Positions 8,994 through 29,158 of a stretch of DNA of 32,000 nt are shown here, piece after piece; positions within the stretch are counted from its first letter, which is position 1; the number at the start of each line of letters is the position of its first letter. The translations under genes were made by a program, and so were the position numbers. The notes under the pieces are model-generated. The model was given only the letters and a program-made list of their open reading frames with translations, did not search any database and was not told where the DNA came from. Source of the DNA: Psychrobacter cryohalolentis K5 (GTDB taxonomy: Bacteria; Pseudomonadota; Gammaproteobacteria; Pseudomonadales; Moraxellaceae); NCBI RefSeq assembly GCF_000013905.1, contig NC_007968.1:1-32000 (forward strand). Reading direction: 5' to 3'.

Positions 8994-9076
8994 CGGCTAA
9001 CTCACCCTTCAAACCCATTGATAGACCATTTAAAATGGACTAAAGCAGTAAAACCACTTCAAGCGTACTATTATTA
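8974..9076 (+). repeat. Site d: imperfect inverted repeat of about 100 bp, partner of site e
   Basis: The ungapped alignment of 8977-9076 with the reverse complement of 13185-13284 is roughly two thirds identical by hand count. Conserved blocks include AGACCA.TTAAAA and AACCACTT. Confidence 0.7.
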
Positions 9077-10052: not shown

Positions 10053-10649
10053 ATGACCGTTCGTATTTATGTGAGAGCAAGCACTAAGGATCAAGACGCT
10101 AAGAGAGCCTTGTCTGACTTGATTAACTTTAGCCAAAGCTATGATGATAACCATGTGGAGTACGTTGAACATTTCAGTGGTACGAAACTTGATAGACCCG
10201 CACTTACTCTATTACTCAGTGACGCTGAAGAAGGCGATATTCTGCTGGTTGAAAGCGTGGATAGATTAAGCCGATTATCTCAAGATGATTTTTCGATTCT
10301 AAAGCAGCGTATTAAAGATAAGGGCTTACGATTGGTGGTGGCTGATCTACCAACCACACATACGATGAGTGACGGTATGACAGGTGAGATCCTAAAAGTG
10401 ATTAACGATATGCTGATCGATTTATTAGCGACCATGGCAAAGCTTGATAATGACAAGCGTAGAGAGCGCATTAAACAAGGATTGGCCAACAGTGGCTATA
10501 AACCCACTGGTAAGAAAGCCAATACAGTGAAACACAATCGTATTAGAGCATTGGCCAGTCAAAACAATATGACAAAAGAAGAGATCGCTAAGGCGGTTGG
10601 TGTTGGCGTAGCTACCGTTTATCGTGTCTTAAAGCAGGTTAATAGCTGA
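10053..10649 (+). CDS. Small serine recombinase (resolvase/invertase family) with a C-terminal HTH
   Basis: IYVRASTKDQD carries the catalytic Ser, and VESVDRLSRL is present. The C-terminus EIAKAVGVGVATVYRVL is an HTH. I prefer the ATG at 10053 with the AGAGG RBS over the TTG at 10026. Confidence 0.85.
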   Translation: MTVRIYVRASTKDQDAKRALSDLINFSQSYDDNHVEYVEHFSGTKLDRPALTLLLSDAEEGDILLVESVDRLSRLSQDDFSILKQRIKDKGLRLVVADLPTTHTMSDGMTGEILKVINDMLIDLLATMAKLDNDKRRERIKQGLANSGYKPTGKKANTVKHNRIRALASQNNMTKEEIAKAVGVGVATVYRVLKQVNS

Positions 10650-10816: not shown

Positions 10817-12397
10817 ATGAATACCCCTACCTCAGACCCTATTGGCGCAGCATGGCTTATCCGTCATGCAAGCATCGAGCTGGTTTCCCCTTTATATGTC
10901 AGCAGCAGTATCGGTGGGCGCAGACAAACCTATAAAGACGGTGACGTCATTCATAACGCTTATCAGGAAACCGCGCGTCCACTGGACACAATCATTGCGC
11001 ACTTACAATTTCACATGCGTCATGAAGTACTGAGTTTAGAGTTACTGACTCGTCTGTTTGAGCAGATAGGGGCTGATGATGTACAAGCATGGGTAAACGC
11101 TGAGCCCACAGGCAGCTATGCCCGTAGAATGGCTTTCTTGTATGAATGGCTCATGGGTCAGCAGTTAGCAGTACCGAGTAATTTAGGCGGTAACTATGTG
11201 GACGCTTTAGATGCTAAGAAGCAGGTTACTTCAAGCCCTGCGCATGTCATCAAGAATGCTCGTTGGCGTATCAATGACAATCTAGCAGGAACCCGTCATT
11301 TCTGTCCGATACTGGTGAAAACAGAGGCCTTTACGCAAGCAGCTGCACTCGATATTGCCATGATGGTTGACAAACTTAACGATGAATTTGGGCAAGACTT
11401 ACTGATGCGTGCCTCCGTATGGATGACATTACGAGAGAGTAAAGCCAGCTTTACCATAGAAGGTGAAGGGAAAGAGTTAAAACGTATTGAACGTTTCGCC
11501 GATGTAATGGCACGGCGCACAGGCAAGGGCGATATTCCGCTTGATCCTGAGTCGCTAGCAGAGTTGCAACAAGAGATATTGGGTAGTAAAACTATTATTC
11601 AGCAGTACGGCATCCGTCAATCACCAGTTTTTGTGTCGCATACTCAGGTCAATGGCTTTAAAGAGATTGTGCACTATATCGCGCCACCTGCTGATGACAT
11701 TGCTGAAAAGCTCAAAGGGTTACAGGCATTTATGGAAAAGACCGAGGGGCAATCGGCACTGATACGTAGTGCGGTTGCTTCCTTTGCTTTTGTATATATT
11801 CATCCGCTGGCGGATGGCAATGGCCGTGTACATCGCTTCTTAATTAATGACGTCCTCAGGCGAGACCAGGTCATTCATGAGCCGATTATCCTACCTATAT
11901 CACAAGCCATTGCTGAGCATCCCTCAGACCGTCATGCCTATGATAAAATTTTAGACCGTGTATCCGTGCCACTTATGGAGCAAATCCGTGATCATTACAG
12001 CTTTAATAAACAGGTGATTACTTACCCTGATGGTATTCGCTCAAACTTAAATTTTGAAAACACTCACCTTATTCAACCGGCATGGCGCTTTATGGACTTA
12101 ACGCCTCACGTTCAGTACTTATCAGGATTGATTGCTCATGTTATTGAAAAAGAGATGCATAACGAGTCGCAGTACCTAAGAAAGCATGACCATGCACGAC
12201 TGGCGATAAAAGAGATTGTTGAGATGCCCAACAGCTATGCCGATAGAATCATTCGCAGCATGCTACAAAATAAGGGTGTTAAAAGTAATAAGCTACTGAA
12301 GGATTATCCGTTTTTGGCAAATAATGAGGTTTGGGACGATATTTTCTCTGTCGTTGTAGAAACTTTTAAAGATGAAGCAGATGGTTTGAATAGTTAG
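10817..12397 (+). CDS. Fic-family protein (predicted AMPylase), class II type with an N-terminal inhibitory motif
   Basis: The Fic motif is HPLADGNGRVHRFLIN. The upstream SFTIEG matches the [ST]xxxE[GN] inhibitory helix. Confidence 0.85.
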   Translation: MNTPTSDPIGAAWLIRHASIELVSPLYVSSSIGGRRQTYKDGDVIHNAYQETARPLDTIIAHLQFHMRHEVLSLELLTRLFEQIGADDVQAWVNAEPTGSYARRMAFLYEWLMGQQLAVPSNLGGNYVDALDAKKQVTSSPAHVIKNARWRINDNLAGTRHFCPILVKTEAFTQAAALDIAMMVDKLNDEFGQDLLMRASVWMTLRESKASFTIEGEGKELKRIERFADVMARRTGKGDIPLDPESLAELQQEILGSKTIIQQYGIRQSPVFVSHTQVNGFKEIVHYIAPPADDIAEKLKGLQAFMEKTEGQSALIRSAVASFAFVYIHPLADGNGRVHRFLINDVLRRDQVIHEPIILPISQAIAEHPSDRHAYDKILDRVSVPLMEQIRDHYSFNKQVITYPDGIRSNLNFENTHLIQPAWRFMDLTPHVQYLSGLIAHVIEKEMHNESQYLRKHDHARLAIKEIVEMPNSYADRIIRSMLQNKGVKSNKLLKDYPFLANNEVWDDIFSVVVETFKDEADGLNS

Positions 12398-12605
12398 AAC
12401 AAACCCTGCTATACGCAGGAAAGTCTGCCTTGATAATCAAGCTCAAGCTAGTATCAGTATCATCGTTGCAATAATGATTCGTTTATAAAAGATTCGGCTA
12501 ACATACCGTAGCCTAAAGCGTAATTAGTATTTTTCTTGAGCCTATTTAATTTAATGAAATACTGATAGGAGGCTATTTTGATTTGACAAGCATGAATATA
12601 TATAA

Positions 12606-13178
12606 TTAAAATAATTTTGAGTATTTGAGTATTTGAGTATTTGAGTATTTGAGTATTTGAGTATTTGAGTATTTGAGTATTTGAGTATTTGAGTATTTGA
12701 GTATTTGAGTATTTACCTTAGTACAAGCAATACATTGCATCTGACGGTTAAGTCCATCCTCATAGTCCTTTTTAACAATAGCAGCGAGCATATCAAGCAT
12801 AATCGAATTAATGGTCTGTAATATGCTGATCATAAATTCAATGCTACTCTCAGATTGAGGCGTCATACAAGAGATCGGCAGCTCTTTTGATACGATAGAG
12901 AGCTTTTTTTCTGATAGCATTCTTTTGAGCGTATCCCAATCAGCTTGGTTCAAACGCGCCAAGCGATCAATCTGCTCAACCAAGATAACATCGGCCTTAT
13001 GAGCATCTTCAATCAGCTGCATAAGCGTGGGTCGCACCAAGGTAGCGCCTGATTCGTTTTAGACATAGAAGGCAGCAATTTTGTGGCCATGATCGTTGGC
13101 AAATGCTATGAGTTCGCTTTTGGCACGTTTAGCATCTTGTTCTTTGGTAGACGCTCGTAGATACGCTCTGATAAACAT
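12606..13178 (-). pseudogene. Decayed serine recombinase gene
   Basis: The minus strand from the ATG at 13178 reads MFIRAYLRASTKEQDAKRAKSELIAFANDHGHKIAAFYV. An in-frame TAA follows (13059-13061), and then NESGATLVRPTLMQLIEDA...VEQIDRLARL. The C-terminal HTH is missing and is replaced by the read-through of the 8-bp repeat array. Confidence 0.75.
12619..12714. repeat. Perfect tandem array (GAGTATTT)x12, i.e. ACTC boxes with AAAT spacers on the other strand; candidate parH-like centromere
   Basis: I counted twelve units directly, starting at 12619 with an exact 8-bp period. Confidence 0.9.
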
Positions 13179-13184
13179 AAACAC

Positions 13185-13300
13185 CTAAAATAGTCTGTTA
13201 TAAGTGGTTCCATTATACCAGTCTGTTTTAAGTGGTCTGTTAATAGGTTTGAAGGCCGAAATAACTGGTTCCCTTGGGGTATACTTTTAAGAACTGACTA
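13185..13300 (-). repeat. Site e: GTATAC core (13279-13284), inverted partner of site d; res-like region upstream of the decayed resolvase
   Basis: It aligns with site d as described there. Three direct GTCTGTT motifs lie at 13193, 13221 and 13235. The dyad centre is about 100 bp from the pseudogene ATG at 13178. Confidence 0.65.
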
Positions 13301-13753
13301 AGATTTATCATTTTTTAGCAGTTGCTCCGCTATTCTTTCTTCCCATTCAGTTTTAGAAAGACGACCTGTATTTTGCATCTTTATATCTTTTAAAACCTTA
13401 TGATGAGCATCAAGGTGGTTAATCATATTGATAATATTATTTTGCTGACGCTTTGTTTCAGCGAGCTTTTGGGTAATAACACTCAATTGTTTATCAACAT
13501 CAATCGTGCCATCGTAATAATCATTCAGGAATTCTTTAAATTCATTCAGATTAAACCCGATGGCTTGCGCACTCTTAATCATTTCAATACGCTCAACACA
13601 TTCTGGATGAAATTCAGTGTACAGTCTTGAGCCTGCTTGGCATTTGCGAGATTTCAATAATCCCATTTCATAGTAATGGCGAACCGTATCTTTGGTGGTG
13701 TTAGCTTGCGCTGCTAACGCCCCTATTAATAAAAAAGATGAGTGTGACGGCAT
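13298..13753 (-). CDS. MerR-family transcriptional regulator
   Basis: IGALAAQANTTKDTVRHYYEMGLL is a MerR HTH. The ATG at 13753 is preceded by GGGAGG, and the TTG at 13768 is less likely. Confidence 0.8.
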   Translation of the reverse strand: MPSHSSFLLIGALAAQANTTKDTVRHYYEMGLLKSRKCQAGSRLYTEFHPECVERIEMIKSAQAIGFNLNEFKEFLNDYYDGTIDVDKQLSVITQKLAETKRQQNNIINMINHLDAHHKVLKDIKMQNTGRLSKTEWEERIAEQLLKNDKS

Positions 13754-13825
13754 AGCATAACCTCCCAAAAATGAACTTCATTTAGCTTTTACTCTTATGA
13801 CCTATGTAGAAGCACTATAGATAAA

Positions 13826-16963: not shown

Positions 16964-17845
16964 TTAAAGCTTACCTAGTTTCTTATGATTATAATAAGTT
17001 CTTCTCGAAATACCTAAGTCTTCCCAAGGCTTCATAGATTGCTCTGACGTAGCTATAGGCTTACGTTTAGATACCTTACCGCCTTTACTACCCTTAAGTG
17101 CCTGCCGATAAATAAACTCATTATAGTGATAAGCATCACGCTTCCAACAGTATTTAGCAATGCTTTTTGCAGTAGCCTTGATTTCTGAGTACGGTAACGG
17201 CTCTGAAAACATCATATTCACGCTTTGAGCGTGCTTAAGTACTGAACTGTACCATTGATCCCAAGTCTTGCCTCGATGCTCTCTAATGGCAGAATAAGCC
17301 CAATGGCGAACGGTATCGAACAGGGAGCAGTTCCTTCCAAGCCCATATTCTTTCTCGTTAGACGTTAAAGGTCTGAGATCTACGAACTCCGCAAGATAAT
17401 TTAGCTCATAGGCTTCTTTCGTCCATACTTCGGTACGCCAATGTTCGTGCAGGGGGTTTTTGGTGATGAAATTGGTATAACCAACGTCTGCGCGACTTGC
17501 TCTGACAAGCCCTGCTTGTATCTTAGCGAGATAATCTAAGGCTTTACGACTGCCATGCTCACTGGTACAAACAGGCGTTTTTAGCTCATAGACGATATGG
17601 GCGTGTCCGTTTGAGGGGTTTTGGCTTGTCCACCGTGGCGGTGGTAGGTATTCTTCTGCCCATCGCATAGCGCCATGCTCATGATCAATGTCTAAGCAGA
17701 TAAAATGAGTCATGCAAGGGGGGTTGTGCTGGATGTACCGCATTTTGACGGCAGTTTGCCTAGGACGAATGACAAGATTACCTAAACCATCGGTGCAATA
17801 GGGCTTGTAGGGGAGTGTTTCGTATATTTCCGGTAGTAATAACAT
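16964..17845 (-). CDS. ColE2/ColE3-type plasmid replication initiator (Rep primase)
   Basis: LPYKPYCTD, NPSNGHAHIVY, YGLGRNCSLFD and the C-terminal KPWEDLGISRRTYY parallel ColE2 Rep. I prefer the ATG at 17845 by homology, but the ORF is open back to a GTG at 17920. Confidence 0.85.
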   Translation of the reverse strand: MLLLPEIYETLPYKPYCTDGLGNLVIRPRQTAVKMRYIQHNPPCMTHFICLDIDHEHGAMRWAEEYLPPPRWTSQNPSNGHAHIVYELKTPVCTSEHGSRKALDYLAKIQAGLVRASRADVGYTNFITKNPLHEHWRTEVWTKEAYELNYLAEFVDLRPLTSNEKEYGLGRNCSLFDTVRHWAYSAIREHRGKTWDQWYSSVLKHAQSVNMMFSEPLPYSEIKATAKSIAKYCWKRDAYHYNEFIYRQALKGSKGGKVSKRKPIATSEQSMKPWEDLGISRRTYYNHKKLGKL

Positions 17846-17935
17846 CACGCACACTTGTATTGGTGCGCCTGCTGATATAAAATGTCCGTATCGAAAAATG
17901 GGTTTTATATCTGCTGACACAGATTAAAATTCATC

Positions 17936-20393: not shown

Positions 20394-20461
20394 ACTCATT
20401 TACTCATGTGAACATATGAGTATATACTCATTTGAGTAAAAACTTATATGAGTATATACTC
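20394..20461. promoter_or_regulatory. ParG-type operator/centromere: ACTC/GAGT tetramer boxes in a strict 8-bp register
   Basis: The boxes at 20394, 20402, 20410, 20418, 20426, 20434, 20442, 20450 and 20458 read ACTC, ACTC, GAAC, GAGT, ACTC, GAGT, ACTT, GAGT, ACTC. They are separated by 4-bp AT-rich spacers. Confidence 0.7.
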
Positions 20462-20479
20462 AAATACGGAATCATTTTC

Positions 20480-21115
20480 ATGAAAGTAATAGCGGTATTA
20501 AATCAAAAGGGCGGAAGCGGCAAAACGACAATCGCTACTCAATTAGCCCGAGGTCTACAGCTGCAAGGGCATAGTGTGTTGTTAGTTGATAGCGACCAAC
20601 AAGGTAGTGCGCGTGATTGGAGAGCAGTTGATGAAGATAACCCTGTGCCAGTTATTGGATTAGATAGACCAACTTTGGATAAAGATTTAAAAAACGTATC
20701 TGATAAAGAATTTGTAGTTATTGACGGTTCTCCGCAAGCAACCACTCTTGCTATATCTGCAATTAAGGCTGCTGATTTTATACTGATACCAGTACAACCA
20801 AGTCCTTATGATGTCTGGGCTACTAGCGATCTAGTAGATCTAGTTAAACAGCGCATCGAGATGACTGATGGTAAATTGAAGGCCGCTTTTGTGGTATCTA
20901 GGGCAATCCAAAATACCAATATCGGCAAAGAAGTGGCAACTGTTTTATTAGATTATGGTTTGCCTGTTCTGGACACTCGGATAATGCAGCGTGTGAGTTA
21001 CCCAAATAGTGCCTCATTAGGTAAAACGGTATTCGATACAGAGTCAGCTAATAGCAATGCTGTACAAGAAATGACGGCTTTGGTCAATGAAGTTAAAACA
21101 TTTTTCGATGAATAA
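20480..21115 (+). CDS. parA: ParA-superfamily partition ATPase, type Ib (ParF-like)
   Basis: [17 protein letters not shown] is the deviant Walker A, and VVIDGSP and [10 protein letters not shown] are present. I prefer the ATG at 20480 over the start of the longer ORF. Confidence 0.85.
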
Positions 21116-21127
21116 TGAGGTATAGAC

Positions 21128-21331
21128 ATGAAAGCAGGTAGACCAAGTAGAGACGCCAAAAACACCTTAGATTTATCAGATGTGACTAATGCTCCGAAAA
21201 AGACAGTAAGAGTTAACTTCAATCTAGATGAAGAAAAGTACATATTGTTAAAACAATATGCACTCAATAACCGTAAGACAGTGACTCAGCTATTAACTGA
21301 TATGATCGATGAAAAAATAGTTGAACGATGA
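21128..21331 (+). CDS. parG: ParG-like ribbon-helix-helix centromere-binding protein
   Basis: VRVNFNLDEEKYILLKQYALNNRKTVTQLLTDMI parallels the ParG sequence RVNVNFDEEKHTRFKAACARKGTSITDVVNQLV (recalled). The gene lies directly after parA. Confidence 0.6.
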   Translation: MKAGRPSRDAKNTLDLSDVTNAPKKTVRVNFNLDEEKYILLKQYALNNRKTVTQLLTDMIDEKIVER

Positions 21332-21588: not shown

Positions 21589-22599
21589 ATGAGCAATTTA
21601 ATAAAAAGTATTAGAATAAAAAGATTGTTTGATGAAAAAGACGTTAGTTGGGAACTAAAAAAAATTAATGTCTTAGTTGGTAAGAATGGATTGGGTAAAT
21701 CTACTATTCTTAGGTTGATAAATGCTGCCGTCACTTTAAAACAAGTTGAAGACTTAAATTTATGTGAAGAAGTAAGCGTAGTAATGAAAGATGAAGAAAA
21801 ATACACTTCGAAAAAAAATAATTTAATAGATATTGAGATGTTAAAATTAGTTATAGAGGAGCTATCAAGGTTTGAAAAAAATTCTAGGAAAGATAAAAAT
21901 TCAGATAGCCATTATGTAAAATATAAAAGATTAAGCAATGATGAACTAAAAGAATTAACGACAGATTTGTTCAAAAAAATAAATAAAAATGCAACTAACT
22001 ATGAAATAGAGGATAATGATAAGAAATTAAATATCAAAAGAGATAATCAAGTTTTTAAACCTAAAAAAAAGATGCCTGTAGAGTTTATATCTACGATAAA
22101 TATGAGTGCGAACTCAGTAAATAACGTTATTGAGAGTGACGGAAATAAGACAACTTTTTTAGACGTAGAGATTGATAAGGAAGTAGAAAGACTAAATAAG
22201 GATCATAGAAACAAAGATGAACTACAAGAAAAGTTTATGAGTTCGTTAAACAATTTTTTTGAAGAAACCAACAAAAAAGTAGAGTTTGTAGACGATAAGA
22301 TAGAAATACTACTAATTAGTGGAAAGAGAATAGACTATCGCAACTTATCTTCTGGAGAAAGGCAGTTAATATTTATATTCCTAAAAATAATAAATGGCGG
22401 CGTTGATAACTCATTGATATTAATGGATGAACCAGAAATATCATTACATCTTTCATGGCAAGAAAAACTATTAACAGAGATCACAAATGCTAATAGCTCA
22501 AGCCAGATGATAATAGTAACTCATAGCCCAGCTCTAGTTATGGACGGTTGGCTAGACAACTTCATAGACATAAAAACCATAACAGAAGAAGTGTGGTGA
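21589..22599 (+). CDS. ABC-type (AAA_21/AAA_15-like) ATPase with a Lys/Glu-rich coiled-coil insertion; AriA-like
   Basis: Motifs are Walker A GKNGLGKST, signature-like LSSGERQ, Walker B LILMDEPEISLH and IIVTHSP. The insertion of about 200 aa is charged. Confidence 0.7.
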   Translation: MSNLIKSIRIKRLFDEKDVSWELKKINVLVGKNGLGKSTILRLINAAVTLKQVEDLNLCEEVSVVMKDEEKYTSKKNNLIDIEMLKLVIEELSRFEKNSRKDKNSDSHYVKYKRLSNDELKELTTDLFKKINKNATNYEIEDNDKKLNIKRDNQVFKPKKKMPVEFISTINMSANSVNNVIESDGNKTTFLDVEIDKEVERLNKDHRNKDELQEKFMSSLNNFFEETNKKVEFVDDKIEILLISGKRIDYRNLSSGERQLIFIFLKIINGGVDNSLILMDEPEISLHLSWQEKLLTEITNANSSSQMIIVTHSPALVMDGWLDNFIDIKTITEEVW

Positions 22600-22604
22600 G
22601 CGAC

Positions 22605-23591
22605 ATGTCAGAGTTTCATGACTTCTTTACTAGTAAAAATTTTATTGGCGCTTATAACGTTTTTTCATCTGGAGATATTAAAGATAAAAATAAAGGGATT
22701 ATTTATGTTGAAGATGCCTCTGATTACTCATTTTGGGAAGGGTTTATTGGCTATCATTACCCAAATGAATATATGTGCCGCCCTTCTTCAAAAGAAGGTA
22801 AAACAGTAACTGGCAAGAGGTTTTTAGAGAAAATATATAAAGATGCTAATGAAAAGATAATAATCGCAGTTGATAGTGACTATGACTACATTGCTTCTAA
22901 GGTACAAGAAGACCACATATTCAATCATAATAAATATGTTATCCATACTCATGGATTTAGTAGAGAGAGTGTCCAGATTGAAAAAGATAGTTTAGATCAT
23001 TTTTTCAAGCTATGTAGGTTAACTATCCCTAACACCGTTAACTTATCAAGCTTCTTAAATGATTTCTCTGAAATAGCTTTTAAAGGACTGGCTAAATATA
23101 TTGTTATTCTCAATAGAATTGATTACAGCAATATATATGATAGCGAATTCAATTCATGTTTCCATCTTCTTGATGAAAACATGGTTGATGAGAACTTACT
23201 AATCAGCAAATCCGGTATTGAAAAAATAGAGAAGAAAATGGACTTATTCTTCGATGATAAATGCATCTACGAAGACGATATAATAAAATCAGAATATTTC
23301 TTAAATGATATAGGAATTAATAGGGATAATGCTTATAGGTTTATATCAGGTCATGTTCTTTTTGACTTAATCAAAAAAATACATAAAATAAATTTATCTC
23401 AGCTAATGAAACACGAGATAAAGAATATCAATAAGAATGTAACTGGAAATGAAATAAAAGACAGGGTTAATCAAGTAAAGACTCGGTTTAATGACTCCTT
23501 TAGCTTTGATACTTACTGTCATATGCGTCAAGTAGATCTTGAAGATGAAGTCCATAAGTTCATACTCTCAGCCATTAAAAATATTAAATGA
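22605..23591 (+). CDS. DUF4435/TOPRIM-like protein; AriB-like predicted nuclease
   Basis: IIYVEDASDYSFWEG and IIIAVDSDYDY are Toprim-type acidic motifs. The start is the ATG at 22605, or a GTG at 22596 that forms a GTGA overlap with the upstream stop. Confidence 0.6.
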   Translation: MSEFHDFFTSKNFIGAYNVFSSGDIKDKNKGIIYVEDASDYSFWEGFIGYHYPNEYMCRPSSKEGKTVTGKRFLEKIYKDANEKIIIAVDSDYDYIASKVQEDHIFNHNKYVIHTHGFSRESVQIEKDSLDHFFKLCRLTIPNTVNLSSFLNDFSEIAFKGLAKYIVILNRIDYSNIYDSEFNSCFHLLDENMVDENLLISKSGIEKIEKKMDLFFDDKCIYEDDIIKSEYFLNDIGINRDNAYRFISGHVLFDLIKKIHKINLSQLMKHEIKNINKNVTGNEIKDRVNQVKTRFNDSFSFDTYCHMRQVDLEDEVHKFILSAIKNIK

Positions 23592-24047: not shown

Positions 24048-24418
24048 AAAACCTCCTTTCAACCTTAGTGGCAGGTCGTGCTGATATGATACGAATAACC
24101 TCACCACCCTCACCATCTCTTTGAGTATGAGCAACAAAGTGCTTGAAAAAACAGTAAATGAAGCGAGAAAACAGTAAATGAAGCGAGAAAACAGCAAATG
24201 AAGCGAGAAAACAGTCCTCAAAAAAATATTGTTTTAGGGACTTTTAATAATTATTTCACCGCACTAAGCGCTTGCTACCGCTCTTCACCGTTTTCATATC
24301 GGTCTTGTTGACGCAAACACAAAGGATCAAAAAATACCCGAGCTGCTTCTTCAAAGCATAAGCCATGTTTGCGTTGATTACTGCTATTTTTCTGTTCATC
24401 CCATTCAAATTCAATCAT
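24034..24418 (-). pseudogene. brnT: brnT (DUF497) toxin gene, disrupted
   Basis: The N-terminal part MIEFEWDEQKNSSNQRKHGLCFEEAARVFFDPLCLRQQDRYENGEER ends at a TAG (24275-24277) where W is expected. A 3.5x 20-bp repeat follows. The C-terminal part HFVAHTQRDGEGGEVIRIISARPATKVERRFYEQG is in a shifted frame and overlaps the brnA start. Confidence 0.65.
24145..24215. repeat. About 3.5 tandem copies of the 20-bp unit GAAAACAGTAAATGAAGCGA inside brnT
   Basis: Units lie at 24145-24166 (two extra A), 24167-24186 and 24187-24206 (one mismatch), with a partial unit at 24207-24215. Confidence 0.85.
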
Positions 24419-26738: not shown

Positions 26739-26858
26739 ATAAAGCTACGTCTATCGACCCATAAAGCTACGTCTATCGACCCATAAAGCTACGTCTATCG
26801 ACCCATAAAGCTACGTCTATCGACCCATAAAGCTACGTCTATCGACCCATAAAGCTAC
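26739..26858 (+). repeat. Iterons: five perfect 22-bp direct repeats ATAAAGCTACGTCTATCGACCC plus a 10-bp partial sixth
   Basis: Units start at 26739, 26761, 26783, 26805 and 26827, and the partial unit is 26849-26858. An inverted half-iteron GTAGCTTTAT lies at 26874-26883. Confidence 0.9.
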
Positions 26859-26923
26859 AATTATTTTATTTGTGTAGCTTTATAGAGTATAGTACTTATA
26901 TTGTTTACTATAGAGAGTATAAA

Positions 26924-27871
26924 ATGAGTAATAAGCAGTTAATTGCTAAAGACAATAAGTTAATCGGTGCTAGCTACTCTCTTGGTATACCCGAACAGCG
27001 TCTTATTTTCTTAGCAATTATTGAAGCAAGAGAACAAAAACAATTGATTGATGCTAAAGGTGTTCTGAACATTAGAGCAAAGAGCTATCAAGAACAATTT
27101 AAGGTAGAAAAACATACTTCATACGATGCATTGAAAAGTGCTACAAGTGGTTTATTTGATGCTCATTTTGAGTATGAAGATATTCATGAAAAAACAGGAA
27201 AACAGGCTCGCCATGTCATTAGATGGGTACAAAAAATAAGCTACATTGATGACGCTGGTATGGTTGAGCTGCAATTTACAGATGCAGTTATTCCGCTAAT
27301 AACAAGACTTAGCGAGCAATACACAGAATATGAGTTAAAACAGGTTAGCGAATTGCAAAGCGAATACTCAATCAGGCTTTATGAGTTAATGATGCAATGG
27401 AAGGCAGTTGGTAAAACTAACAAGATATCAGTTGACGATCTACGTAGGAAATTAGGTGTTGAGCCCAAGCAATATAAGAAAATGAATAACTTCAAGGCAC
27501 GAGTTCTAGACCATGCTATTAATCAAATAAATGAACATACAGATATTCAAGCTGAGTATGATCAGTATAAAGATGGACGTGCAATTGCAGGCTTTACATT
27601 TAAATTTAAAGTGAAGAAAAACAAAGTGAAAATTGCTGCCAAAGTTGAAGCTGATAACGTCGACAGGTCTACCATTGAAGGGCTAAACGATAAGCAGTTA
27701 GGGCGTATTGCTCGCAATCCTAGTTTTATAGCAGACTATAATGATTTAGTTAGTTCGACTAGCCCAGCTGGTCAAGATATGAATATGTGGGAATTAGAGA
27801 TGATTAATCGCCTTAAGAAAGACATTTCTCAATTTAAGAAACGTCCAATTAGAGAGTATCTTGAATACTAA
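26924..27871 (+). CDS. Rep_3-family (RepB/RepA-type) iteron-binding replication initiator
   Basis: KDNKLIGASYSLGIPEQRLIFLAI and YSIRLYELMMQW are typical Rep_3 motifs. The iterons lie directly upstream. I prefer the ATG at 26924 over the start at 26870. Confidence 0.85.
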   Translation: MSNKQLIAKDNKLIGASYSLGIPEQRLIFLAIIEAREQKQLIDAKGVLNIRAKSYQEQFKVEKHTSYDALKSATSGLFDAHFEYEDIHEKTGKQARHVIRWVQKISYIDDAGMVELQFTDAVIPLITRLSEQYTEYELKQVSELQSEYSIRLYELMMQWKAVGKTNKISVDDLRRKLGVEPKQYKKMNNFKARVLDHAINQINEHTDIQAEYDQYKDGRAIAGFTFKFKVKKNKVKIAAKVEADNVDRSTIEGLNDKQLGRIARNPSFIADYNDLVSSTSPAGQDMNMWELEMINRLKKDISQFKKRPIREYLEY

Positions 27872-28030: not shown

Positions 28031-29158
28031 ATGACAGACTTAAATAAAGAAATTGATAAAGCAAGACACAATGTTCGAACAGATAGCTATTCTATGTCTA
28101 TAGGCGAACTCGCTAGTATGTACGAAGATAATGAACTAGAAATACATCCGGCTTTTCAAAGAGTTTTTCGATGGAGTGATGAGCAAAAGAGTAATTTTAT
28201 AGAATCTATATTCTTAGGTATTCCAATCCCTTCTATATTTGTTTCTCAGCGCCAAGATGGCGTTTGGGATTTAGTGGACGGCCTTCAAAGATTATCAACC
28301 ATTTTCTCTTTTATGAATAAACTGAAGGATGAAGAAGGAAGTATTAGAGACCCATTCACTCCTGAGGCAACTAAGTATCTACCATCTCTTAAAGGAAGAA
28401 AGTGGGGAACAGAAGATTTAGACTCTGCCGACTTACTATCGAACAATCTCAAACTCTTGTTCAAAAGACAAAAGATAGCTGTAAATATTATAGAACGTGA
28501 AAGTGACGATGATGCTAAGTTCGAGCTATTTCAGCGGTTAAACACGGGAGGATCTGCTTTATCTCCACAAGAGGTCAGAAACTGTTTATTGATAATGTTA
28601 AACAATCAGGCTTTTGATTTTATTCAGGCTTTAACTAAAGATGAATCATTTCAAAAAACAGTCCTTGTTACAGAGGCGAAGGAAGATCAAGCATATTATT
28701 ATGAACTCGTATTGAGGTTCTTTATTAACAGACATGCATCTGATGAAATACGATCAAAGCATAGTGATGTACATCCTTATCTTAACAATGAAACAATCCG
28801 ATTATTTGATATTAACTCAGATTTTGAATACAACAAAGAAAGAGAGGTGTTCAAAAATACTTTTGAGCGTATAGCTCTTGCCCTAGGAGATGATGCGTTT
28901 AAAAAATACAACCCTCAAAAAGATAGATATGAGGGGGCTTTTAGCTTACCTGTGTTTGAGGCTATATCTACAGGCATATCGTTCCTAGTAGAAAGCGATG
29001 ATTATAATGAGGATGCTATAGTTGTAGTTATAGCAGCTAAGACAAAAGAGCTTATAGATAATAATGATTTTACAAACTCTTATGCTACTCGGATTAGACC
29101 TATAGACAGAACTAAGATAATGATTGGTATAGGTCGGAGTTTGTTTTGTGAGGATTAG
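28031..29158 (+). CDS. DUF262 (ParB/Srx-like, GmrSD N-terminal type) domain protein lacking a DUF1524/HNH nuclease domain
   Basis: Supporting motifs are IHPAFQRVFRWSDEQKSNFIESIFLGIPIPSIFV, WDLVDGLQRLSTI (a DGQQR variant) and FELFQRLNTGGSALSPQEVRNC. Confidence 0.8.
   Translation: MTDLNKEIDKARHNVRTDSYSMSIGELASMYEDNELEIHPAFQRVFRWSDEQKSNFIESIFLGIPIPSIFVSQRQDGVWDLVDGLQRLSTIFSFMNKLKDEEGSIRDPFTPEATKYLPSLKGRKWGTEDLDSADLLSNNLKLLFKRQKIAVNIIERESDDDAKFELFQRLNTGGSALSPQEVRNCLLIMLNNQAFDFIQALTKDESFQKTVLVTEAKEDQAYYYELVLRFFINRHASDEIRSKHSDVHPYLNNETIRLFDINSDFEYNKEREVFKNTFERIALALGDDAFKKYNPQKDRYEGAFSLPVFEAISTGISFLVESDDYNEDAIVVVIAAKTKELIDNNDFTNSYATRIRPIDRTKIMIGIGRSLFCED

What the first reader, a model, noticed from the sequence alone, without database searches (positions are those of the whole stretch)
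12619..12714. Perfect (GAGTATTT)x12 array has the layout of a ParG/parH centromere, 8 kb from parFG
Seen: there are twelve exact 8-bp units. On the other strand each unit is an ACTC box plus the 4-bp spacer AAAT. The promoter region of the ParF-like gene (20394-20461) uses the same code, with ACTC/GAGT boxes every 8 bp. The 67-aa protein after parA aligns by eye with the ParG RHH core. Established (recalled from the TP228 parFGH literature): ParG binds arrays of ACTC tetramer boxes separated by AT-rich 4-bp spacers, both in the operator and in the parH centromere. Inference: the array is a second, unusually regular, all-direct centromere-like site for this ParG. It sits inside the d/e cassette, where it replaces the 3-prime end of the dead resolvase gene. 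The alternative is a slippage-prone octanucleotide microsatellite with no function. The unit length is not a multiple of 3, so the NTQILKYS repeat in the ORF track is a translation artefact.
Basis: partly seen in the sequence, partly recalled or inferred. Interest (0 to 1): 0.65.

Follow-up and report, generated by a model that had tools for sequence, protein, structure and literature searches.

The report
Orphan ParG centromere repeat array
The twelve perfect 8-bp repeats are a detached copy of the DNA array that the plasmid-partition protein ParG is thought to bind in Psychrobacter plasmids; this copy was already reported in 2012, and whether it works as a second centromere is untested.

Summary
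In detail: (GAGTATTT)x12, exact, lies at 12619-12714. On the minus strand this reads as 12 ACTC boxes with AAAT spacers.

The window is Psychrobacter cryohalolentis K5 plasmid 1. Lasek et al. 2012 (PMC3346939) already reported these 12 repeats. They noted that the repeats are identical to the putative parS (17x AATACTCA) upstream of parA-parG in pP62BP1.

My comparisons support the ParG reading:
- The same unit, in 4-17 copies, sits 18-20 bp upstream of parF in many sister plasmids. Their ParF is 90-94% (ParG 64-87%) identical to K5's.
- K5's own parF operator has 9 boxes in one 8-bp register.
- The ParG beta-strand is conserved with TP228 ParG.

The K5 array is not a local oddity. It belongs to a conserved unit: a sigma-70-like promoter, then the array, then the 3' end of a resolvase gene. 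This unit usually follows a Fic gene and occurs in about 40 species-level assemblies, with 3-27 copies.

Some replicons that carry the unit lack parFG altogether. The cis "second centromere" role therefore stays plausible but unproven.

Best reading: an orphaned par operator/centromere that K5 ParG very probably binds. Novelty is low.

The parts
12619..12714 (-). Array of 12 identical units. On the minus strand each unit is an ACTC box plus an AAAT spacer. This is the ParG-type parS/parH-like repeat.
   Evidence: The unit is identical to the parF-upstream arrays of sister plasmids and to the putative parS of pP62BP1 (PMC3346939).
12583..12612 (+). Sigma-70-like promoter, TTGACA-18 nt-TAAAAT, firing into the array. 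The array starts 6 bp after the -10 box.
   Evidence: It scores 11/12 in the promoter scan. TTTGACAAG and (C/T)AAAAT are kept in 22 distinct variants of this flank while the spacer varies. The extraction pattern required those motifs, but it captured 44 contigs, which match the Fic-linked arrays listed.
12715..13178 (-). Dead serine-recombinase gene (Res2 type). It has an in-frame TAA at 13059-13061 and has lost about 139 bp of its 3' end, so the open frame runs into the array.
   Evidence: Translation, Pfam Resolvase N-terminal domain only, alignment with L004/L002/L046, and Lasek et al. 2012 on Pcryo_2509/2479.
10817..12397 (+). Fic-family gene that precedes the promoter-array unit in most relatives. 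It is a candidate defence gene.
   Evidence: Pfam Fic. PADLOC PDC-S24, E 6e-176, full length. A Fic gene lies 225-253 bp from the array in most class A loci.
10053..10649 (+). Intact serine recombinase (Res1 type) upstream of Fic. In relatives without Fic it lies 124-170 bp from an array.
   Evidence: Pfam Resolvase + HTH_7; contexts.
20394..20461 (.). parF operator. It has nine tetramer boxes in one 8-bp register, in mixed orientation (OF-like), and overlaps promoter-like hexamers.
20480..21115 (+). parF (ParA-type Walker ATPase, type Ib).
   Evidence: It is 90-94% identical to ParF genes that have a perfect array 18-20 bp upstream.
21128..21331 (+). parG (ribbon-helix-helix centromere-binding protein).
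   Evidence: Pfam PF09274 above cut-off and 1P94 as best PDB match. The beta-strand KKTVRVNFN is shared with ParGs of array-bearing operons.
9006..9072 (.). Left arm of a 67-nt imperfect inverted repeat. The right arm is at 13189-13255, just upstream of the dead resolvase start. The repeat brackets the cassette TA-Res1-Fic-array-Res2.
   Evidence: The right arm matches the position of IRL_RES described by Lasek et al..

Best explanation
The array is a detached copy of the centromere/operator repeat of the Psychrobacter ParF-ParG (type Ib) partition systems.

Proposed mechanism, inferred from TP228:
- One ParG dimer inserts its beta-ribbon into each ACTC box, and dimers 8 bp apart coat the array cooperatively.
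- The ParG N-terminal tails recruit and stimulate ParF.
- In this plasmid, the ParG encoded at 21128-21331 should therefore occupy the 12 boxes. The array would act as an extra ParF-ParG loading site and ParG sink alongside the 9-box operator at parF.
- The array begins 6 bp after the -10 box of a conserved promoter. ParG binding should therefore also shut off that promoter, which reads antisense into the resolvase gene.

Proposed history:
- The promoter-array-resolvase-3'-end unit is an orphaned par regulatory region. Layouts of the form "resolvase, then boxes, then parFG" and "-10, then (GAGTATTT)n, then parF" exist elsewhere.
- The unit now travels with a Fic gene and resolvases among Psychrobacter and Acinetobacter replicons.
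- The only K5-specific event is a deletion of about 139 bp that fused the array to the dead resolvase frame.

Shown: sequence identity of the unit with parF-linked arrays, family membership of ParF and ParG, conservation of the promoter and of the linkage. Inferred: ParG binding, partition activity and promoter repression.
For: - In about 20 loci the same perfect array lies 18-20 bp upstream of a ParF that is 90-94% identical to K5's, followed by a ParG that is 64-73% identical.
- ParG-first sampling covered 12 Moraxellaceae plasmids in PLSDB (11 Psychrobacter, 1 Moraxella osloensis). Seven have (ACTCAAAT)n, n=4-17, upstream of parF. These include the three ParGs closest to K5's (81-87% identity).
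- The beta-strand KKT(V/A)RVNFN matches RVNVN of TP228 ParG.
- The literature shows that TP228 ParG binds ACTC boxes with 4-bp AT spacers, one dimer per box. parH has 12 boxes, an all-direct synthetic parH works, and either parH or OF alone is a centromere (PMC3130281).
- K5's own operator uses the same boxes in the same register, and the whole plasmid holds no third cluster.
- More distant ParG systems also have GAGT/ACTC boxes at 8-bp spacing: Xanthomonas, Wohlfahrtiimonas, and the Halomonas, Bacteriovoracia and Nitrosomonas MAGs.
- In Acinetobacter boissieri the array lies 62 bp downstream of parG, so it cannot be only an operator there.
- The unit stays GAGTATTT in all five PLSDB plasmids found by their flank alone, although those flanks are only 72-86% identical.
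- The -35 and -10 boxes of the promoter are kept in 22 variants.
- Ten contigs carry both a parF-linked and a Fic-linked array.
Against: - No experiment shows ParG binding to any Psychrobacter array; in the papers read here, parS is only described as putative or predicted.
- The promoter-array unit persists, often long, where no cognate ParG is encoded in cis: WY6 plasmid (11 units, no ParF/ParG by tblastn), Acinetobacter p10FS3-1-2 (22 units, unrelated ParA at 27% identity), ER1 chromosome (27 units).
- pPspP11G5a carries 22 units, but its own parF array is (ACTTATAT)n.
- In pA53P4, which has a cognate parFG array, the Fic-linked copy is only about 3 units. In pP32BP2 it was lost to an IS insertion.
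- The neighbouring resolvase is often a pseudogene.
- K5 already has a 9-box site at parF, so the array may be redundant.
Confidence: 0.6

Rival explanations
1. Inert relic. The array is what remains of a par operator/centromere after parFG was lost from a resolvase-par cluster. It is kept pure and variable only by replication slippage, hitch-hikes with the Fic/resolvase cassette, and does nothing useful in K5.
For: - It occurs in replicons and a chromosome without parFG.
- Copy number drifts from 3 to 27.
- It was lost through an IS insertion in pP32BP2.
- The adjacent resolvase is decayed in K5 and L004.
- K5 has its own operator/centromere at parF.
- The Xanthomonas layout, resolvase then boxes then parA-parG, gives a simple origin.
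Against: - The unit sequence is unchanged in all five flank-sampled plasmids, whose flanks have diverged to 72-86% identity.
- The promoter hexamers next to it are kept while the spacer varies.
- Left and right flanks mostly co-diverge as one unit, which points to long-term joint retention.
- Long pure 8-bp arrays are otherwise rare.
- ParG plasmids with ACTC-type arrays are common in the genus, so a binding protein is often present in trans.
Confidence: 0.25
2. ParG-independent regulatory repeat. The array is a slippage-prone tract in the leader of the transcript made from the 12583-12612 promoter. Copy number, or the self-pairing (GAGUAUUU)n RNA, tunes antisense transcription into the resolvase, as with 5'-UTR repeats in Moraxella.
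For: - The conserved promoter points into the array.
- Copy number is polymorphic.
- The RNA folds to -46 kcal/mol, z = -3.9.
- The unit is present without ParG in some replicons.
Against: - The unit is exactly that of the parF-linked arrays, a coincidence this model does not explain.
- The array is not between the -35 and -10 boxes.
- No conserved ORF or Rfam family lies downstream.
- What lies downstream differs between contexts: a resolvase, an IS, or DUF3817/lspA.
- 12 units were found in two independent sequencings of K5.
- The RNA fold follows trivially from the repeat.
Confidence: 0.08
3. Recombination junction. The identical arrays serve mainly as homology patches at which plasmid modules are exchanged or inverted. 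The position next to resolvases reflects that history rather than any binding function.
For: - One plasmid-sized contig carries several arrays, in inverted orientation in some (L006, L025, L026, L083, L107; a 39.7-kb P. nivimaris contig carries three arrays).
- Many contigs end inside arrays.
- K5 plasmid 1 carries two rep genes.
Against: - Left and right flanks mostly pair one-to-one or one-to-two, so shuffling at arrays is infrequent.
- This describes a consequence of the arrays. It does not explain why the arrays exist or keep their unit.
Confidence: 0.07

Closest known systems
Putative parS of Psychrobacter plasmids pP62BP1 and pP32BP2 (Lasek et al. 2012, PMC3346939; Arch Microbiol 2018 paper on Psychrobacter sp. 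DAB_AL32B, PMC6579772)
   Same: The 8-bp unit is identical (AATACTCA, the same repeat in another phase), the copies are perfect and direct, and the ParA/ParG family is the same. The 2012 paper explicitly lists the 12 repeats of K5 plasmid 1 as identical to pP62BP1's parS.
   Different: In those plasmids the array fills the gap between the -10 box and the RBS of parA. In K5 it lies 7.8 kb away, behind a different promoter and against a dead resolvase. The 2012 paper read this as a rearrangement and did not link the unit to the ACTC-box code. Binding has not been tested in either case.
TP228 parH centromere and OF operator bound by ParG (Wu et al. 2011, PMC3130281)
   Same: Both use ACTC tetramers with 4-bp AT-rich spacers at 8-bp periodicity. 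parH has 12 mostly direct boxes, and OF has 8 boxes of mixed orientation overlapping the promoter. K5 has both kinds: 12 direct boxes and 9 mixed boxes. Both have an RHH ParG and a ParF ATPase.
   Different: TP228's boxes are degenerate, and its two sites are adjacent, separated by about 5 bp. K5's array is perfectly repeated and 7.8 kb from the operator. ParG identity to TP228 is low (phmmer E = 0.02).
pSM19035 omega protein and its heptad arrays (from my own knowledge, not checked here)
   Same: An RHH dimer binds contiguous short repeats in direct or inverted orientation at several separate promoters. Each site serves as both operator and parS for a ParA-type ATPase (delta). This is the best analogue for one RHH protein serving dispersed array sites.
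   Different: The repeats are 7-bp heptads and the protein family is unrelated in sequence. All of its sites control known genes, whereas the K5 array's promoter has no evident target.
Dispersed sopC-like centromeres of phage-plasmid N15 (from my own knowledge, not checked here)
   Same: Centromere sites lie kilobases away from the partition operon and overlap promoters.
   Different: It is a type Ia SopAB system with inverted-repeat sites, not tandem arrays.
Simple-sequence contingency repeats (for example the AGAT repeats in the uspA2 leader of Moraxella catarrhalis; from my own knowledge)
   Same: Both are perfect short tandem repeats with variable copy number, lying downstream of a promoter, in the same bacterial family.
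   Different: Here the unit coincides with a protein-binding box code used at partition operons. No gene lies downstream whose expression the repeat could switch.

Membership tests
ParG/parH-type (type Ib) centromere-operator site | Array of ACTC tetramer boxes separated by 4-bp AT-rich spacers (8-bp period). | tested here: met
   12 of 12 boxes are ACTC with an AAAT spacer. The definition comes from PMC3130281.
ParG/parH-type (type Ib) centromere-operator site | A ParG-family RHH protein and a ParF-type Walker ATPase are encoded on the same replicon. | tested here: met
   PF09274 scores 24.3 bits, above the 21.4 cut-off. ParA-type domains are present. 1P94 is the best PDB match.
ParG/parH-type (type Ib) centromere-operator site | The same repeat is used as the parF-upstream site by closely related ParF/ParG pairs. 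| tested here: met
   About 20 loci have the array 18-20 bp from parF. Seven of 12 ParG-sampled plasmids do, including those with 81-87% ParG identity to K5.
ParG/parH-type (type Ib) centromere-operator site | Position immediately upstream of the parFG operon. | tested here: not met
   The array ends at 12714 and parF starts at 20480. The site at parF is a separate 9-box operator.
ParG/parH-type (type Ib) centromere-operator site | Specific, cooperative binding by the cognate ParG. | not testable with these tools
   This needs EMSA, footprinting or ChIP. The papers read here describe Psychrobacter parS only as putative or predicted.
ParG/parH-type (type Ib) centromere-operator site | Centromere activity: stabilises a replicon in cis when ParFG is present, and exerts incompatibility in trans. 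| not testable with these tools
   The indirect evidence is mixed. The array co-occurs with parF-linked arrays on 10 contigs, but it is also present on replicons without parFG.
Simple-sequence contingency (phase-variation) locus | Perfect short tandem repeat whose copy number differs between close relatives. | tested here: met
   Relatives carry 3-27 units. However, two independent sequencings of strain K5 both give 12 units.
Simple-sequence contingency (phase-variation) locus | The repeat lies within an ORF or between promoter hexamers, so that unit number switches a gene on or off. | tested here: not met
   The array lies after the -10 box, not between the hexamers. The only ORF through it is a dead resolvase. 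The post-array frames end within 3-13 codons. No conserved ORF lies downstream.
pdif (XerC/XerD) module boundary | A 28-bp XerC-spacer-XerD site flanks the cassette. | tested here: not met
   A degenerate dif pattern allowing 3 mismatches gave one hit, at 2451, no more than chance.

The most novel reading that the evidence does not exclude
The promoter-array unit is a mobile orphan centromere. Carried with a Fic-type defence gene and resolvases, it would let replicons that encode no ParFG (WY6 plasmid, Acinetobacter p10FS3-1-2) and even chromosomal islands capture ParF-ParG supplied in trans by co-resident plasmids. It could equally titrate ParG away from competing plasmids. ParG occupancy would at the same time act as a switch on the antisense promoter facing the resolvase.
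Probability: 0.15. Interest if true: 0.65.

Novelty: already known. Interest (0 to 1): 0.33.

Why it matters
If K5 ParG does bind the array, K5 plasmid 1 would be a natural split version of the TP228 parH-OF arrangement. It would have a regular 12-box site and a mixed 9-box operator on one replicon, 7.8 kb apart. That makes it a convenient substrate for asking how box number, orientation and distance affect segrosome assembly.

The wider pattern may matter more for plasmid ecology. The same perfect array sits in about 40 Psychrobacter species-level assemblies, often on several contigs of one assembly and sometimes on replicons without parFG. This raises testable questions about partition-based incompatibility, centromere sharing and hijacking in strains that carry many plasmids.

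There is also a practical point: these arrays break short-read assemblies of Psychrobacter plasmids.

Tried and rejected
- pdif/Xer sites around the cassette: the degenerate search gave nothing above chance.
- Rfam scan of 12300-13400: no family at E <= 1.
- Small ORFs after the Fic stop or after the array: present, but not conserved between K5 and L004.
- RNA structure of the array transcript: it folds strongly. The fold follows from G-U self-pairing of the repeat, so I did not treat it as evidence.
- A phase-variable C-terminal extension of the resolvase: (AAATACTC)n is open in every frame, but all post-array frames stop within 3-13 codons.
- Literature search by repeat sequence returned only noise. 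The ANT_H3 plasmidome paper does not discuss par sites. The pMET1 paper added nothing on a resolvase-par linkage.
- Hits to the same unit in Helicobacter pylori, Flavobacteriia and several other MAGs have unrelated flanks. I set them aside as independent microsatellites.
- Genome-wide co-occurrence of Fic-linked arrays with ParG could only be approximated.

Full report
**What the window is.** A megablast of 11800-13800 gives a 100% full-length match to Psychrobacter cryohalolentis plasmid NZ_CP022042.2 (41,221 bp), a re-sequencing of strain K5. Lasek et al. 2012 place the unannotated parG of K5 plasmid 1 (CP000324) at 21,128-21,331. These are exactly the window coordinates, so the window is the first 32 kb of that record.

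**The observation.** Positions 12619-12714 are twelve exact GAGTATTT units. TRF reports period 8, 100% matches and score 198. On the minus strand this reads as 12 ACTC boxes, each followed by AAAT. ACTCNNNNACTC occurs 14 times against 0.54 expected.

The parF upstream region 20394-20461 carries nine tetramers in a single 8-bp register: ACTC, ACTC, GAAC, GAGT, ACTC, GAGT, ACTT, GAGT, ACTC. They overlap promoter-like hexamers. No shuffle of the window put more than 3 boxes in register, and the complete plasmid has only these two clusters.

The 67-aa protein passes Pfam ParG above its cut-off, and its best PDB match is TP228 ParG. The upstream gene is a ParA-type ATPase.

**It is already in the literature.** Lasek et al. 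2012 (PMC3346939) describe the putative parS of pP62BP1 as 17 identical 8-bp repeats (AATACTCA) between the -10 box and the RBS of parA. They report "twelve 5'-AATACTCA-3' repeats" in K5 plasmid 1 that are not adjacent to parA and that form the 3' end of Pcryo_2479, the C-terminal half of a resolvase disrupted by a GAA-to-TAA change. A later paper describes eight such repeats as the parS of pP32BP2.

None of the papers I read reports a binding or stability test of the repeats. The 2012 paper does not mention the ACTC tetramer code. Synthetic all-direct sites work, and either site alone is a centromere (PMC3130281).

**Comparative evidence that this is the ParG site of the family.** An exact-pattern scan of one genome per species found 115 stretches with at least 4 units, mostly on Psychrobacter contigs, several of them high-coverage or plasmid-sized. 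In about 20 of them the array lies 18-20 bp upstream of a ParF that is 90-94% identical to K5's. A ParG that is 64-73% identical follows.

To avoid circularity I also sampled by ParG. I examined 12 Moraxellaceae plasmids in PLSDB (11 Psychrobacter, 1 Moraxella osloensis):
- Seven have (ACTCAAAT)n, n=4-17, upstream of parF. These include the three ParGs closest to K5's (81-87% identity).
- Three have (ACTTATAT)n, as does a fourth plasmid examined separately, pPspP11G5a.
- pA36P2 has a mixed-orientation operator like K5's.

The beta-strand KKT(V/A)RVNFN is shared by all of these and resembles RVNVN of TP228 ParG.

More distant ParG systems show the same grammar. Wohlfahrtiimonas has (GAGTTTAT)x4 and Xanthomonas has GAGT/ACTC boxes. 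The Halomonas, Bacteriovoracia and Nitrosomonas MAGs have arrays about 20 bp from parF. In Acinetobacter boissieri the array lies 62 bp after parG. I regard it as well supported that the unit is the recognition repeat of this ParG lineage, and that K5's ParG belongs to the ACTC-using group.

**What the K5 copy belongs to.** The array is not a K5-specific rearrangement. The same arrangement recurs in relatives: Fic gene, about 220 bp, TTGACAAG-N17/18-(C/T)AAAAT, 3-6 bp, array, then the 3' end of a convergent resolvase. It occurs in pPspP11G5a (22 units), Acinetobacter p10FS3-1-2 (22), the WY6 plasmid (11), pA53P4 (about 3), and in 44 contigs from 40 assemblies, with full arrays of 4-27 units.

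The -35 and -10 hexamers are kept in 22 distinct variants while the spacer varies. In K5 this is the best promoter-like site in the region, at 12583-12612, scoring 11/12. The array starts 6 bp after the -10 box. This is the same geometry as at parF promoters, where the array follows the -10 box (L039 and L113).

The resolvase side is also old. Several diverged alleles end within 0-25 bp of the array, some with the stop codon inside the first degenerate unit. The Xanthomonas plasmid shows a resolvase whose TAA lies inside the first GAGT-AAAT box-spacer, followed by boxes and parA-parG-parC. That gives a simple origin: the unit is an orphaned par operator/centromere that stayed attached to a resolvase.

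In K5 itself, alignment with three relatives shows that about 139 bp of the resolvase 3' end next to the array has been deleted. Translation shows the in-frame TAA at 13059-13061. (AAATACTC)n is open in all frames, which is why the dead ORF runs through it.

**What counts against a simple "second centromere".**
- The WY6 plasmid has no ParF or ParG by tblastn, yet it carries 11 units.
- Acinetobacter p10FS3-1-2 has only an unrelated ParA (27% identity) with a 99-aa partner, yet it carries 22 units.
- A 27-unit copy sits in the ER1 chromosome.
- pPspP11G5a uses ACTTATAT at its own parF.
- pA53P4 has a cognate 9-unit parF array, but its Fic-linked copy has only about 3 units.
- pP32BP2 lost the unit to an IS insertion.
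- Only 12 of the 40 assemblies with the promoter-linked array also showed a perfect parF-linked array. The scan cannot see operators like K5's, so this is a lower bound.

On the other side, ten contigs carry both kinds of array. The unit sequence is unchanged in all five plasmids found by flank alone, although those flanks are only 72-86% identical. The promoter is conserved. Both K5 assemblies have 12 units.

**Conclusion.** The array is a ParG-box array homologous to the family's parS/parH, which I consider near certain. K5 ParG probably binds it. Whether it contributes to partition, acts mainly as an operator for the conserved antisense promoter, or is a tolerated relic cannot be decided from sequence alone. 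I put about 0.6 on the binding and accessory-site reading, 0.25 on an inert relic, and the remainder on ParG-independent roles.

However, the core observation was published in 2012, and the kind of element is known. What may be new is the breadth and the conserved architecture of the promoter-array-resolvase unit, and its presence on replicons that lack parFG.

Noticed in passing
window 21589-23591: The two genes directly downstream of parG match the PARIS defence pair. AriA (AAA ATPase) scores E 2e-39 and AriB (DUF4435) scores E 1.7e-23 in PADLOC.
   Followed up: partly
window 10817-12397: The 526-aa Fic protein next to the array matches PADLOC candidate defence family PDC-S24 over its full length (E 6e-176). 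It also matches SoFic (E 2e-21). The cassette that carries the array therefore looks like a defence cargo flanked by resolvases.
   Followed up: partly
window 28031-29158: The DUF262 protein matches PADLOC NsnA (E 1e-61). It sits next to a HEPN-like nuclease gene and a BsuBI/PstI-type restriction-modification pair, so this part of the plasmid is a defence cluster.
   Followed up: no
window 26739-26858 and 24148-24215; rep genes at 16964-17920 (-) and 26870-27871 (+): There are 5.5 perfect 22-bp iterons directly upstream of repM, and a second set of 3.4 copies of a 20-bp repeat. With two replication-initiator genes, the plasmid looks like a cointegrate of two replicons with a single parFG.
   Followed up: no
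window 9006-9072 and 13189-13255: A 67-nt inverted repeat (72% complementary) brackets the cassette RelE/HTH toxin-antitoxin, Res1, Fic, array and dead Res2. The right arm lies just upstream of the dead resolvase start, where Lasek et al. place IRL_RES.
   Followed up: partly
L121 (pPspP11G5a) about 36745-36970; also L127, L128, L131: A second Psychrobacter ParG group (about 70% identical to K5 ParG, with the same beta-strand) has long perfect arrays of a different unit, (ACTTATAT)n, upstream of parF. Some exceed 25 units. This may be a distinct centromere specificity or incompatibility group.
   Followed up: partly
L005, L012, L028, L088: A block of 9-bp units (GAGTATTTT)n directly precedes the 8-bp array. 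L059 has a block of GAGCATTT units next to GAGTATTT units. Unit variants therefore arise and spread block-wise within arrays.
   Followed up: no
L140 (Xanthomonas perforans pGEV872.3) 500-630: The resolvase stop codon lies inside the first GAGT-AAAT box-spacer of the parA-parG-parC operator. This is a compact resolvase-boxes-par layout.
   Followed up: partly
L016, L022, L024, L031, L053, L092 (Helicobacter pylori): The same GAGTATTT unit forms a variable microsatellite (4-14 copies) at one conserved H. pylori locus with unrelated flanks. It is apparently an independent repeat.
   Followed up: no
window 12615-12800 (+ strand RNA): A transcript of the array would self-pair through G-U and A-U pairs into a long hairpin (-46 kcal/mol, z = -3.9). 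This probably follows from the repeat itself.
   Followed up: partly
L006, L025, L026, L083, L107; contig NZ_CAJHAL010000030.1 (L008, L046, L103): Many Psychrobacter short-read contigs begin and end inside these arrays, sometimes in inverted orientation about 8 kb apart. One 39.7-kb plasmid-like contig holds three arrays. The repeats break assemblies and could mediate inversions.
   Followed up: partly
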